From a virus (lineage: Duplodnaviria; Heunggongvirae; Uroviricota; Caudoviricetes), in the IMG/VR virus record IMGVR_UViG_3300029248_000131: a stretch of 6,650 nt of DNA; one strand, given 5' to 3'. This document shows, piece after piece, positions 2,507 to 3,887 of the stretch (its first letter is position 1; every line of letters begins with the position of its first letter). The notes below the pieces were generated by a model, which was not told the origin of the DNA, did not search any database, and worked only from the letters and a program-made list of their open reading frames with translations. Made by a program: the position numbers and the translations under genes.

Positions 2507-2597
2507 TTCTAACGTCTCCCCAAGTCTACTCAAGTATTTAAAAACCTCTTATAATCCGCATGTTAGCGCCCCTTTTAGTCTTTTGACGTCTACTTAA

Positions 2598-2672
2598 GTA
2601 CCCCAAAATCTACAGTCAATTGGGGGTACTTTTGGGGGTATTTGCTGTTCGGTTTAGTGGAGGTACCCCCAA
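2598..2672. promoter_or_regulatory. Cluster of TTGGGGGTA(C/T) motifs in both orientations (putative integrase arm-type or int regulatory sites)
   Basis: Direct copies TTGGGGGTAC (2620-2629) and TTGGGGGTAT (2632-2641) are flanked by inverted copies GTACCCCAAAA (2598-2608) and GTACCCCCAA (2663-2672). The last copy abuts the int GTG start at 2673. Confidence 0.45.
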
Positions 2673-3887
2673 GTGAAACTCAATGCCCGTCAAATAGACA
2701 CTGCCAAGCCAAAAGAGAAGGCTTACAAGCTGGCTGATGGTGGTGGTCTGTATCTCTTGGTAAAACCTAGTGGAGGAAAATATTGGCGCTTCAAGTATCG
2801 TGTAGCTGGTAAAGAGAAGCTGTTAGCACTAGGTGTGTATCCTGAAGTTACCTTGGTTGATGCTCGTGCAAAACGTGAAGAAGCTAAAAGGAGTATCGCT
2901 GGGGGTATCGATCCGATGGAAGCGAAACGAGAGGAAAAGATTGCCCGGGAAACGCAGTTAAACAACACCTTCAAAGATATTGCCATTGAGTGGCACAGCA
3001 GCAAATTAAAAAAATGGTCTGCTGGTTATGCTTCAGACATCCTCGAAGCCTTCAACAAAGATGTGTTCCCTTACATTGGCAAAAAACCAATCGCCGAAAT
3101 CAAACCACTTGAACTGCTGAATGTGCTGCGGCGTATCGAGGGGCGCGGTGCTACCGAAAAAGCCAAAAAAGTGAGGCAGCGATGCGGGGAAGTTTTCCGC
3201 TATGCAATTGTCACTGGACGTGCTGAGTATAACCCTGCACCGGATCTCACCAGCGCGATGCAAGGTCATGAATCTAATCATTATCCTTTCCTCACAGCCA
3301 AAGAATTACCTGATTTTTTCAAGGCATTGTCCAGTTACTCAGGAAGTGCATTGGTTGTTATGGCGGCTCGTCTACTGATTATCACCGGTTTGCGGACTGG
3401 CGAACTGCGCGGTGCATTATGGGATGAAATCGATCTCAACAAGGCTATCTGGGAGATACCTGCTTCACGGATGAAAATGCGTCGCCCTCATGTGGTGCCT
3501 TTGTCTAAGCAGGCTCTTTCTCTTATTGGGCAGATTAAAGAATTAACTGGCAATTATCCGCTTATGTTTCCCGGCCGTAATGATCCAAGGAAAACAATGA
3601 GCGAGGCTAGCATAAACCAAGTATTTAAACGCATCGGCTATAACGGAAAGGTTACTGGTCATGGATTCCGGCACACCATGAGCACCATTTTGCATGAGCA
3701 GGGCTATAACACCGCGTGGATAGAGACACAGCTTGCACACGTCGATAAAAACTCAATTCGTGGCACATACAACCATGCGCAATATCTGGATGGTCGCCGG
3801 GAGATGCTCCAGTGGTATGCCGACTATATGGATTCGCTCGAGCATGGCGGAAATGTGGTGCATGGTGAGTTCGGAAAATGCGGGTGA
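2673..3887 (+). CDS. int: P4-family tyrosine integrase (site-specific recombinase)
   Basis: ORF-track ORF of 404 aa. GTG at 2673 is the first start-type codon after the in-frame TAG at 2655-2657, with GGAGG 9 nt upstream. The N-terminus (GLYLLVKPSGGKYWRFKYR) matches the arm-binding domain of P4-type integrases. Tyrosine-recombinase catalytic signatures are visible: R in GLRTGELR, box II HGFRHT, Y in TYNHAQY. Sits directly downstream of the tRNA fragment. Confidence 0.9.
   Translation: MKLNARQIDTAKPKEKAYKLADGGGLYLLVKPSGGKYWRFKYRVAGKEKLLALGVYPEVTLVDARAKREEAKRSIAGGIDPMEAKREEKIARETQLNNTFKDIAIEWHSSKLKKWSAGYASDILEAFNKDVFPYIGKKPIAEIKPLELLNVLRRIEGRGATEKAKKVRQRCGEVFRYAIVTGRAEYNPAPDLTSAMQGHESNHYPFLTAKELPDFFKALSSYSGSALVVMAARLLIITGLRTGELRGALWDEIDLNKAIWEIPASRMKMRRPHVVPLSKQALSLIGQIKELTGNYPLMFPGRNDPRKTMSEASINQVFKRIGYNGKVTGHGFRHTMSTILHEQGYNTAWIETQLAHVDKNSIRGTYNHAQYLDGRREMLQWYADYMDSLEHGGNVVHGEFGKCG

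What the first reader, a model, noticed from the sequence alone, without database searches (positions are those of the whole stretch)
2518..2675. Organised repeat array between the att fragment and the int start codon
Within about 160 bp: four copies of TTGGGGGTA(C/T), two direct at 2620-2629 and 2632-2641 flanked by inverted copies at 2598-2608 and 2663-2672; GTCTACT(C/T)AAGTA at 2524-2536 and 2588-2600; CCCCAAGT at 2518-2525 and 2667-2674, the latter overlapping the int GTG. This density and symmetry is what arm-type integrase or accessory-factor binding sites, or an autoregulatory int operator, look like. It is too structured to be chance.
Basis: seen in the sequence. Interest (0 to 1): 0.5.

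Follow-up and report, generated by a model that had tools for sequence, protein, structure and literature searches.

The report
Integrase arm-binding repeats beside int
The repeats in front of the integrase gene are real and match the long-known "arm" repeats of satellite phage P4, the docking sites an integrase uses to insert or excise a mobile element at a tRNA gene, so this is an ordinary example of a known device.

Summary
Three TTGGGGGTAY copies form the conserved unit: two direct copies 12 bp apart (2620-2629, 2632-2641) and one inverted copy (2663-2672) between the ribosome-binding site and the GTG start of int. The fourth copy (2598-2607) has one mismatch and occurs only in close relatives.

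Phage P4 has the same layout with GGGGGCA, and its GenBank record annotates the units as "attP arm sequence repeat". In 78 of 82 related integrase loci a 7-mer is repeated at exactly 12 bp with an inverted copy before the start codon.

The motif changes as a set (GGGGGTA, GGGGGCA, GGGGGCC, TGTATAG) and follows the integrase's N-terminal arm-binding domain. It does not follow the rest of the protein, the target tRNA or AlpA.

A second GGGGGTA pair lies at the far end of the same element, 81 bp before the 16-nt core.

A self-repressing operator is plausible but weaker here, because the promoter match is poor. GTCTAC repeats at 10-bp phasing are a second site class, possibly for the AlpA excision factor. 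This is a new member of a known kind.

The parts
2336..2506 (+). Right end (attR) of an upstream SfV/P22-type prophage, ending in the thrW fragment. It is not part of the satellite.
   Evidence: 96-98% identical to the attP region of Shigella phages SfI, SfII, SfIV and SfV. Prophage tail and acyltransferase genes lie upstream in E. coli EC20 and E41.
2461..2506 (+).
   Evidence: ARAGORN and Rfam find no whole tRNA. The stretch is identical to the 3' part of the intact tRNA-Thr(CGU) of relatives L003-L020, and identity stops at ATTCGTAATGCG.
2491..2506 (+). 16-nt core CCTATTATCGGCACCA, shared with the far end of the satellite. The crossover presumably lies within it.
   Evidence: The same 16-mer, often lacking one G, lies 81 bp after the far-arm repeat pair in EC20, APEC IMT5155, L141 and L149. 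L111 keeps the intact 16-mer.
2514..2529 (+). Second-class repeats, cluster A: GTCTCC (2514-2519) and GTCTAC (2524-2529), 10 bp apart. Candidate sites for the excision factor.
   Evidence: GTCTAC near -149 is conserved across thrW and argU-type loci, often with a second copy 10 bp downstream.
2553..2565 (+). IHF-like sequence AATCCGCATGTTA, one mismatch to WATCARNNNNTTR. A weak candidate only.
   Evidence: Matched, but the motif is common: 26 matches in the window against 15.8 expected. The surrounding block 'cccttataatc' is conserved in relatives. P4 has an IHF site in its int regulatory region (PMC7286903).
2588..2613 (+). Second-class repeats, cluster B: GTCTAC (2588-2593) and ATCTAC (2608-2613), 20 bp apart. 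Relatives have a third copy midway and TTGAAA (-35-like) between the copies.
   Evidence: 10-bp-phased direct repeats occur in relatives (for example L031, L043, L054). The fourth base covaries between copies within a locus: TCTAC, TCAAC, TCCAC.
2598..2607 (-). Imperfect arm-like copy TTTGGGGTAC. It is lineage-specific and sits where relatives have a second-class repeat ((G/A)TCTAT).
   Evidence: One mismatch. TACCCC at -74 occurs only in the window, L001-L003, L009, L011, L012 and L014.
2620..2629 (+). Arm-type site P'1 (TTGGGGGTAC).
   Evidence: Exact match. At -51 in relatives. Homologous to P4 'attP arm sequence repeat' 3954-3965.
2632..2641 (+). Arm-type site P'2 (TTGGGGGTAT), 12 bp after P'1.
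   Evidence: Exact match. The 12-bp spacing is kept in 78 of 82 loci. Homologous to P4 repeat 3942-3953.
2659..2663 (+). Shine-Dalgarno sequence GGAGG of int.
   Evidence: Read from the sequence. It lies 9 nt before the GTG.
2663..2672 (-). Arm-type site P'3 (inverted TTGGGGGTAC), filling the gap between the Shine-Dalgarno sequence and the start codon.
   Evidence: Exact match. At -9 in relatives. Homologous to the P4 inverted repeat 3915-3926 at the int start.
2673..3887 (+). int: a P4-family tyrosine integrase of 404 aa with a GTG start. Residues 3-88 form the arm-binding domain.
   Evidence: Pfam Arm-DNA-bind_3 1e-28, Phage_int_M 3e-34, Phage_integrase 5e-26. 42% identical to P4 Int. The N-domain matches PDB 3ju0 and 3jtz.
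2899..2908 (+). Internal arm-like copy CTGGGGGTAT inside int (codons A-G-G-I). Function uncertain.
   Evidence: GGGGGTA sits at +229 in most close relatives, and P4 also has an annotated internal repeat.
4809..5075 (+). alpA: an AlpA/Vis-family helix-turn-helix protein, the candidate excision factor that would read the GTCTAC repeats.
   Evidence: Pfam Phage_AlpA 2.5e-19. 39% identical to P4 Vis (ORF88) by tblastn.

Best explanation
Window 2507-2672 is the int-proximal (P') arm of the attachment site of a P4/PICI-type satellite element inserted at the 3' end of thrW.

**Arm-type sites.** The TTGGGGGTAY copies P'1 (2620), P'2 (2632) and the inverted P'3 (2663) are DNA sites read by the N-terminal arm-binding domain of the integrase encoded immediately downstream. 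A matching pair lies on the other arm, 81 bp before the core, outside this window. Together they let an integrase tetramer bridge arms and core, building the recombination complex for integration and excision.

**Second site class.** The (G/A)TCTAC repeats at 10-bp phasing, between core and arm sites, most likely bind the AlpA/Vis-type excision factor.

**Likely side effect.** P'1/P'2 sit where relatives have the -10 element of the int promoter, and P'3 sits between the ribosome-binding site and the start codon. Bound integrase probably also lowers int transcription.

**Shown:** the sequence layout, homology to P4's annotated arm repeats, covariation with the N-domain, and the far-arm pair.

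**Inferred:** actual binding, the identity of the GTCTAC reader, and autoregulation.
For: 1. **Domain.** The integrase has Pfam Arm-DNA-bind_3. Its N-terminus matches the solved arm-binding domains 3ju0 and 3jtz.
2. **P4 record.** NC_001609 annotates 12-bp 'attP arm sequence repeats': two tandem on the far arm, the core, two tandem plus one inverted at the int start. The motif is GGGGGCA. The window repeats this layout with GGGGGTA.
3. **Family-wide layout.** 78 of 82 loci with integrases 61-99% identical have a 7-mer repeated at exactly 12 bp plus an inverted copy before the start codon. The rate is 2 of 410 in shuffles and 7 of 410 in other windows of the same loci.
4. **Constant geometry.** The tRNA ends 165-167 nt before int in most loci, whichever tRNA is targeted.
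5. **Covariation as a set.** Classes are GGGGGTA (42 loci), GGGGGCA (23), GTATAG (10), GGGGGCC (1) and GGGGTGT (2).
6. **Class follows the N-domain.** Parsimony counts 4 class changes on the N-domain tree against 12 on the tree of residues 100-404. Residue 50 is L, R, M or K strictly by class. Class does not follow the tRNA target or AlpA similarity.
7. **Far arm.** GGGGGTA-N5-GGGGGTA lies 81 bp before the core in E. coli EC20, APEC IMT5155, L109, L111, L125, L141 and L149. P4 has GGGGGCA on both arms. Upstream of the GGGGGCA-class int L063 lies a GGGGGTA pair that I read as the far arm of the neighbouring GGGGGTA-class element L044.
8. **Specificity of the pair.** In 164 fetched loci the pair pattern occurs only in these two kinds of place.
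9. **Independent geometry.** A doubled 12-bp-period motif at -81 and +132 of the attP centre was reported for a related integrase clade (PMC10111431). Here P'1 starts 131 bp after the core start.
10. **Operator.** TTGAAA-N18-(C/T)A(T/C)AAT, with the -10 at the P'1/P'2 junction, scores at least 9 of 12 in 34 of 69 distinct upstream regions, against 6 of 420 at random positions. P4 scores 10 of 12. P4 Int and Vis repress Pint (PMC7286903). KplE1 IntS and TorI sites overlap the intS promoter (PMC2951348).
Against: - No binding data exist for this element, and the P4 repeats are annotated from sequence.
- P' sites and the N-domain coding region are physically adjacent. All arm sites are close together in the circular form. 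Co-inheritance by linkage could therefore explain part of the covariation.
- Residue 50 rests on about four independent switches.
- The promoter match in this window is poor: CCAAAA-N18-TACTTT, about 5 of 12. The consensus scan finds no + strand promoter in 2400-2760.
- In the related ICEKp1 the homologous flank had negligible promoter activity (PMC13023037). Autoregulation may therefore not apply here.
- The far arm is not in this window, so it is inferred from near-identical elements elsewhere.
Confidence: 0.85

Rival explanations
1. The repeats act mainly as RNA. In transcripts that read through the region, the G-rich copies pair with the C-rich inverted copies (2596-2604 with 2623-2631; 2632-2643 with 2660-2672). 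The resulting stem-loops attenuate transcription or hide the ribosome-binding site and start codon of int.
For: - The predicted fold of 2585-2690 is two adjacent hairpins made of exactly these copies, and the second includes GGAGG.
- RNAalifold on 22 diverse loci gives a 7-bp P'1:P'3 stem with compensatory changes in 5 pairs.
- In ICEKp1, which has a related P4-type integrase 161 bp after tRNA-Asn, int is co-transcribed from the tRNA promoter. Stem-loops in the 5' flank lower the full-length transcript (PMC13023037).
Against: - Folding energy is not unusual: z = -1.2, with 25 of 200 shuffles as good; z = -0.34 for 2508-2690.
- Covariation of inverted copies is equally expected for co-evolving protein sites.
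- Both direct copies covary, although only one can pair with P'3.
- The same pair recurs on the far arm with no inverted partner nearby.
- Motif class follows the protein's N-domain.
- No U-tract follows the hairpins.
- In this window there is no intact tRNA or tRNA promoter upstream.
- This may be an added role, but not the primary one.
Confidence: 0.08
2. The GGGGGTA repeats are operators for another protein of the element, such as AlpA or a repressor, and not for the integrase.
For: The authors who found the analogous doubled motif in HE-PICIs left open AlpA or an unknown protein (PMC10111431). P4 Vis also represses Pint (PMC7286903).
Against: - AlpA similarity does not follow motif class. 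L057 is TGTATAG class with AlpA 78% identical to the window's. EC20 has identical GGGGGTA arms with AlpA 59% identical.
- Class follows the integrase N-domain with the minimum possible number of changes.
- A separate 10-bp-phased repeat family (GTCTAC) is the better candidate for AlpA.
Confidence: 0.05
3. The repeats are chance or compositional: G-runs in an intergenic region with no function.
For: Short G-rich words can recur. CCCCAAGT at 2518 and the AAGTA tail are indeed not conserved.
Against: - 0 of 200 shuffles reach the observed count.
- The layout is kept in 78 of 82 loci across many genera, while the spacers diverge.
- The motif changes as a set.
Confidence: 0.01

Closest known systems
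Phage P4 attP arm sequence repeats (Pierson & Kahn 1987; annotated in NC_001609)
   Same: - Two tandem 12-bp-period direct repeats on each arm, and one inverted copy at the int start.
- Integrase with the same N-terminal arm-binding domain.
- Insertion at the 3' end of a tRNA gene.
- The TTGAAATC block and an (A/G)TCC-type second repeat lie between the core and the arm sites.
   Different: - The motif is GGGGGTA here and GGGGGCA in P4.
- The target is thrW here and leuX in P4.
- The integrases are only 42% identical.
- The promoter match is much weaker here: about 5 of 12 against 10 of 12.
- In this window the tRNA half is supplied by the attR of another prophage.
KplE1 (CPS-53) attL: IntS arm-type P' sites and TorI sites overlapping the intS promoter (PMC2951348)
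   Same: - int lies next to attL and is transcribed away from the tRNA.
- Arm-type sites overlap the -10 position.
- Excision-factor sites lie next to the -35.
- Phage integrases annotated IntS (HK620 and Sf6, same type) are 49% identical to this one.
   Different: - The arm motif differs (a TAAA-containing site).
- The excision factor is TorI, not an AlpA-family protein.
- Binding and repression were shown experimentally there, and not here.
HE-PICI doubled attP motif tgTGTATTGCantgTGTATTGCa (PMC10111431)
   Same: A doubled motif with a 12-bp period, co-oriented, at about -81 and +132 of the attP centre. Here the pairs start 81 bp before and 131 bp after the core start.
   Different: - The motif sequence differs.
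- Those authors did not find it in other PICIs and left the binding protein open.
- Here there is also an inverted third copy at the start codon.
ICEKp1 int 5'-UTR stem-loops and tRNA-promoter read-through (PMC13023037)
   Same: A P4-type integrase about 160 nt after a tRNA gene in the same orientation, with a flank that can fold into stem-loops.
   Different: - That mechanism is RNA-level and needs the tRNA promoter.
- Here the intact thrW is separated from int by a whole prophage.
- Folding is not statistically unusual.
Lambda Int arm-type sites (P1, P2, P'1-P'3)
   Same: A heterobivalent integrase whose N-domain reads repeated sites on both arms, away from the core (general knowledge; summarised in PMC2951348).
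   Different: The N-domain fold family differs: four-stranded sheet, Pfam Arm-DNA-bind_3. Spacing, motif and site orientation also differ.

Membership tests
P4-family attP arm-type repeats | The adjacent integrase carries the P4/island-type N-terminal arm-binding domain. | tested here: met
   Pfam Arm-DNA-bind_3 E = 1e-28. PDB 3ju0 9e-27 and 3jtz 4e-21. 42% identical to P4 Int.
P4-family attP arm-type repeats | Two tandem direct repeats with a 12-bp period, plus an inverted copy at the int start, on the int-proximal arm. | tested here: met
   Sites at 2620, 2632 and 2663(-). Same positions as P4 3954-3965, 3942-3953 and 3915-3926. Present in 78 of 82 relatives.
P4-family attP arm-type repeats | A matching tandem pair on the other arm of the same element. 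| tested here: met
   It lies outside this window. It was found in the 99.5%-identical element of APEC IMT5155 (L165 20958/20970, core at 21040) and in EC20, L109, L111, L125, L141 and L149.
P4-family attP arm-type repeats | Insertion at the 3' end of a tRNA gene, with a short identity block at both ends. | tested here: met
   thrW 3' fragment at 2461-2506. An intact tRNA-Thr(CGU) sits at the same distance in L003-L014 and in APEC IMT5155. The 16-nt core recurs at the far end.
P4-family attP arm-type repeats | The integrase binds the repeats. | not testable with these tools
   Indirect evidence only: motif class follows the N-domain.
Autoregulated int promoter overlapping attL (P4 Pint, KplE1 PintS) | A sigma-70 promoter whose -10 is overlapped by an arm-type site. 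| tested here: inconclusive
   At the homologous position the window has CCAAAA-N18-TACTTT, about 5 of 12. No + strand promoter appears in the scan. Half of the relatives and P4 score 9-10 of 12.
Autoregulated int promoter overlapping attL (P4 Pint, KplE1 PintS) | Repression of int transcription by the integrase and the excision factor. | not testable with these tools
   Shown for P4 and KplE1 in the literature, and not for this element.
Excision-factor (AlpA/Vis-type) binding array | Direct repeats about one helix turn apart, between the core and the arm sites on one arm only, with an AlpA-family gene in the element. | tested here: met
   GTCTCC 2514, GTCTAC 2524, GTCTAC 2588 and ATCTAC 2608, with spacings 10, 64 and 20. 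Relatives show runs at exactly 10 bp. The repeats are absent from far arms. alpA lies at 4809-5075. Binding by AlpA is untested. The TCAAC class goes with a more divergent AlpA (42-49% identity), with L013 as an exception.
int 5'-UTR attenuator stem-loops (ICEKp1 type) | Co-transcription of int with the upstream tRNA gene. | tested here: not met
   No intact tRNA lies upstream in this window. The fragment belongs to a prophage attR. The condition could hold where the same element sits next to an intact thrW.
int 5'-UTR attenuator stem-loops (ICEKp1 type) | A stable, conserved RNA structure in the flank. | tested here: inconclusive
   Hairpins are predicted, but z = -1.2. The compensatory changes are confounded by the repeats being co-varying protein sites.
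Any Rfam RNA family in 2518-2675 | A covariance-model match. | tested here: not met
   No match in this stretch at E <= 1.

The most novel reading that the evidence does not exclude
The same heptamers work at two levels.

- **As DNA**, they are arm sites read by the integrase N-domain. Residue 50 (Leu, Arg, Lys or Met) sets the sixth base of the site, so specificity can be switched by swapping the N-domain and its sites as a module.
- **As RNA**, in transcripts entering from the tRNA or from the far arm of the excised circle, the direct and inverted copies pair and hide the ribosome-binding site and start codon.

One repeat set would then control both recombination-complex assembly and how much integrase is made.
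Probability: 0.2. Interest if true: 0.5.

Novelty: new member of a known kind. Interest (0 to 1): 0.27.

Why it matters
For this locus it settles the annotation. The array is the int-proximal arm of a thrW satellite's attachment site. It gives exact site coordinates for anyone who wants to test excision or build an integration vector.

Three general points come out of the comparison:
- The P4 layout (two pairs, at about -81 and +131 of the core, plus an inverted copy at the start codon) holds across many Enterobacterales integrases that target at least six tRNA genes.
- The arm motif switches together with the N-terminal domain, independently of the core-targeting part of the protein.
- One residue (position 50) tracks the sixth base of the site perfectly.

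These are testable rules for predicting, or re-engineering, arm specificity. They refine a known mechanism and do not reveal a new one.

Tried and rejected
- **tRNA and RNA families.** ARAGORN and Rfam on the window find no tRNA and no RNA family in the repeat region.
- **Promoter scan.** The sigma-70 scan of 2400-2760 finds nothing on the + strand. TTGACG at 2583-2588 looks like a -35, but no usable -10 lies 16-18 bp downstream (read).
- **RNA folding.** Hairpins form, but the energies are not better than shuffles. I therefore do not rank RNA structure as the primary explanation.
- **IHF consensus.** One 1-mismatch hit lies at 2553-2565, but the motif is too common to mean much.
- **Far arm by tRNA fragment.** Searching EC20 for a second copy of the 46-nt thrW fragment failed, even for its last 12 nt with up to 2 mismatches. 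The far end keeps only 15-16 nt, with a 1-nt deletion. It was found through the GGGGGTA pair instead.
- **AlpA as reader of GGGGGTA.** Rejected, because AlpA similarity does not follow motif class.
- **CCCCAAGT and the 2598 copy as functional parts.** CCCCAAGT at 2518 is not conserved and the 2598 copy is lineage-specific.
- **Papers.** Szwagierczak et al. 2009 on the arm-binding domain structures is not held. What I say about its content is from memory. I did not look for Pierson & Kahn 1987. For P4 I rely on the GenBank annotation.
- **Not used.** Protein database searches and structure prediction, because the DNA comparisons answered the question.
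Full report
**1. Observation**

- TTGGGGGTAY is exact at 2620-2629 (+), 2632-2641 (+) and 2663-2672 (-).
- The copy at 2598-2607 (-) has one mismatch.
- With up to 1 mismatch there are 5 matches in the window against 0.57 expected, and no shuffle out of 200 reaches 5.
- GTCTACTYAAGTA is exact at 2524-2536 and 2588-2600.
- CCCCAAGT is at 2518-2525 and 2667-2674.
- The repeat finder confirms the direct pair at 12-bp spacing and the inverted arms.

**2. Context**

*The element.*
- The ORF at 2673-3887 (GTG start) is a 404-aa tyrosine integrase with Pfam Arm-DNA-bind_3, Phage_int_M and Phage_integrase domains.
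- An AlpA-family gene lies at 4809-5075 and an AntA-family gene at 5153-5953.
- In E. coli genomes that carry a closely related int region, downstream genes include an Icd-like protein and a P4-family or DUF5906 primase. The element is therefore a P4/PICI-type satellite.

*The att fragment.*
- No whole tRNA is present.
- Positions 2461-2506 are identical to the 3' 46 nt of the intact tRNA-Thr(CGU) found at the same distance from int in the closest relatives.
- Positions 2336-2506 are 96-98% identical to the attP region of the Shigella phages SfI, SfII, SfIV and SfV.
- Prophage genes lie upstream in EC20 and E41.

The 'att fragment' is therefore the right end of a second prophage that inserted at thrW in tandem. 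The satellite begins just after it. In APEC IMT5155 the same satellite (99.5% identical over 2508-2900) sits directly next to an intact thrW.

**3. What the repeats correspond to**

The GenBank record of phage P4 annotates 12-bp 'attP arm sequence repeats'. Read in the orientation of int, the order is:
- two tandem units on the far arm;
- the 20-bp core;
- two tandem units, then one inverted unit at the int start.

The P4 sequence reads GGGGGCAtaattGGGGGCA...TGCCCCCaaATG. The window has the same arrangement with GGGGGTA: direct copies at -51 and -39 and an inverted copy at -9. P4 Int and the window integrase are 42% identical.

**4. Family-wide test**

I fetched 80 loci from species-representative genomes with integrases 61-99% identical.
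- A search that assumes no motif asked for any 7-mer repeated at 11-13 bp with an inverted copy downstream, at most one mismatch in all. It succeeds in 78 of 82 upstream regions, always at exactly 12 bp. It succeeds in 2 of 410 shuffles and 7 of 410 other windows of the same loci.
- Spacers diverge while the heptamers stay.
- The tRNA gene ends 165-167 nt before int in most loci, whether the target is Thr, Arg, Gly, SeC, Ser or Phe.

**5. Covariation**

- All copies within a locus change together. The classes are GGGGGTA (42 loci), GGGGGCA (23, including P4), GTATAG (10), GGGGGCC (1) and GGGGTGT (2).
- Class is independent of the tRNA target and of AlpA similarity.
- Class follows the integrase N-terminal domain. 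Parsimony on neighbour-joining trees gives 4 class changes, the minimum for 5 classes, on residues 1-90. It gives 12 on residues 100-404.
- Residue 50 is Leu in all GGGGGTA loci, Arg in all GGGGGCA loci, Lys in the GGGGGCC locus and Met in the GTATAG and GGGGTGT loci. Residues 29 and 53 also track class.

*Caveat.* The sites and the N-domain coding sequence are neighbours, so linkage contributes to this pattern. The residue-50 association rests on few independent events.

**6. The other arm**

- In E. coli EC20, GGGGGTAtctttGGGGGTA lies at the far end of the element, 81 bp before CCTATTATCG-CACCA.
- APEC IMT5155 and several IMG/VR contigs show the same pair and the same 81-bp distance.
- P4 has GGGGGCA on both arms.
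- In Photorhabdus asymbiotica, a GGGGGTA pair lies directly upstream of the GGGGGCA-class int L063. I read it as the far arm of the neighbouring GGGGGTA-class element L044, because the two ints are about 7 kb apart in the same orientation.
- Across 164 loci the pair pattern occurs only at these two kinds of position.
- A 2023 paper reported a doubled 12-bp-period motif at -81 and +132 of the attP centre in a related integrase clade (PMC10111431). Here P'1 starts 131 bp after the core start.

**7. Second repeat class**

- (G/A)TC(T/A/C)AC repeats lie between the core and the arm sites, all in one orientation. In the window they are at 2514, 2524, 2588 and 2608, with spacings of 10, 64 and 20.
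- Relatives show runs at exactly 10 bp. The fourth base covaries between copies within a locus.
- The repeats are absent from the far arms.
- Direct repeats one helix turn apart are typical of excision-factor sites (abstract of PMC7498355).
- The TCAAC class goes with a more divergent AlpA (42-49% identity), with one exception.

I propose AlpA binding, at moderate confidence.

**8. Promoter and operator**

- In P4 and half of the relatives, TTGAAA-N18-(C/T)A(T/C)AAT places the -10 at the P'1/P'2 junction. It scores at least 9 of 12 in 34 of 69 distinct regions, against 6 of 420 random positions.
- P4 Int and Vis repress Pint (PMC7286903). KplE1 IntS and TorI sites overlap the intS promoter (PMC2951348).
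- In this window the homologous hexamers are CCAAAA and TACTTT, about 5 of 12, and the scan finds no + strand promoter.

The operator role is therefore inferred for the family and uncertain here.

**9. RNA rival**

- The copies can pair into two hairpins, and the second covers the ribosome-binding site.
- RNAalifold finds compensatory changes.
- In ICEKp1, int is read from the tRNA promoter and stem-loops in the flank reduce the transcript (PMC13023037).
- Against this: the energies are not unusual, and both direct copies covary.
- The far-arm pair has no inverted partner, class follows the protein domain, and no tRNA promoter lies upstream here.

I keep this as a possible added role only.

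**10. Verdict**

The array is the int-proximal arm of a P4-family attachment site. It is a real and functional-looking feature, already known in kind.

Noticed in passing
window 3931-3991 (+): Rfam int-alpA RNA motif just after the int stop codon: 33.8 bits against a gathering score of 35.8, E = 0.00036, full-length match. It lies between int and the next ORF (4008-4763), as the family name suggests.
   Followed up: no
window 1-2506; L001, L002: The satellite is separated from the intact thrW by a whole SfV/P22-type prophage, a tandem insertion. If int depends on tRNA read-through as in ICEKp1, this arrangement would cut it off from that promoter. In APEC IMT5155 the same satellite sits next to an intact thrW.
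   Followed up: partly
Int residues 29, 50, 53 (window 2757-2759, 2820-2822, 2829-2831): Residue 50 tracks the arm-motif class perfectly: Leu with GGGGGTA, Arg with GGGGGCA, Lys with GGGGGCC, Met with GTATAG and GGGGTGT. Residues 29 and 53 track it partly. It is a candidate determinant of the sixth base of the site, resting on few independent switches.
   Followed up: partly
loci L003-L082: Integrases are mosaics. Arm-motif class changes 12 times on the tree of residues 100-404 but only 4 times on the N-domain tree. The N-domain and its sites therefore appear to be exchanged as a module, independently of the core-targeting part.
   Followed up: partly
L083 9056-9070; L165 21040-21054; L141, L149, L109, L125 far ends: The tRNA fragment at the far end is damaged: one G is missing (CCTATTATCGCACCA) or there are larger losses. 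This matches the 'DNA damage' of attR tRNA fragments reported for PICIs at Thr, Pro and SeC genes (PMC10111431).
   Followed up: no
window 2899-2908; int +159, +229 and +70 in relatives: Class-matching heptamers recur inside int. GGGGGTA is at +229 or +159 in many GGGGGTA-class loci, and GGGGGCA is at +70 in many GGGGGCA-class loci. They are made with uncommon Gly and Val codons. P4 also has an annotated internal arm repeat. They could be extra sites or codon coincidence.
   Followed up: partly
L165 21055-21544: After the far-end core in APEC IMT5155 comes a second, decayed P' arm. One of the two direct repeats is lost, and it is followed by a truncated integrase gene, next to the vat island. 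This is a remnant of another tandem element.
   Followed up: no
window 1200-1234 (+): A strong 13-bp hairpin followed by a T-run (GAATAAGGCTCCCAATGGGAGCCTTATTTTTT) looks like an intrinsic terminator. It gave only a weak partial Rfam RmaA match (24 bits, E = 0.87), which is most likely just the terminator stem.
   Followed up: no
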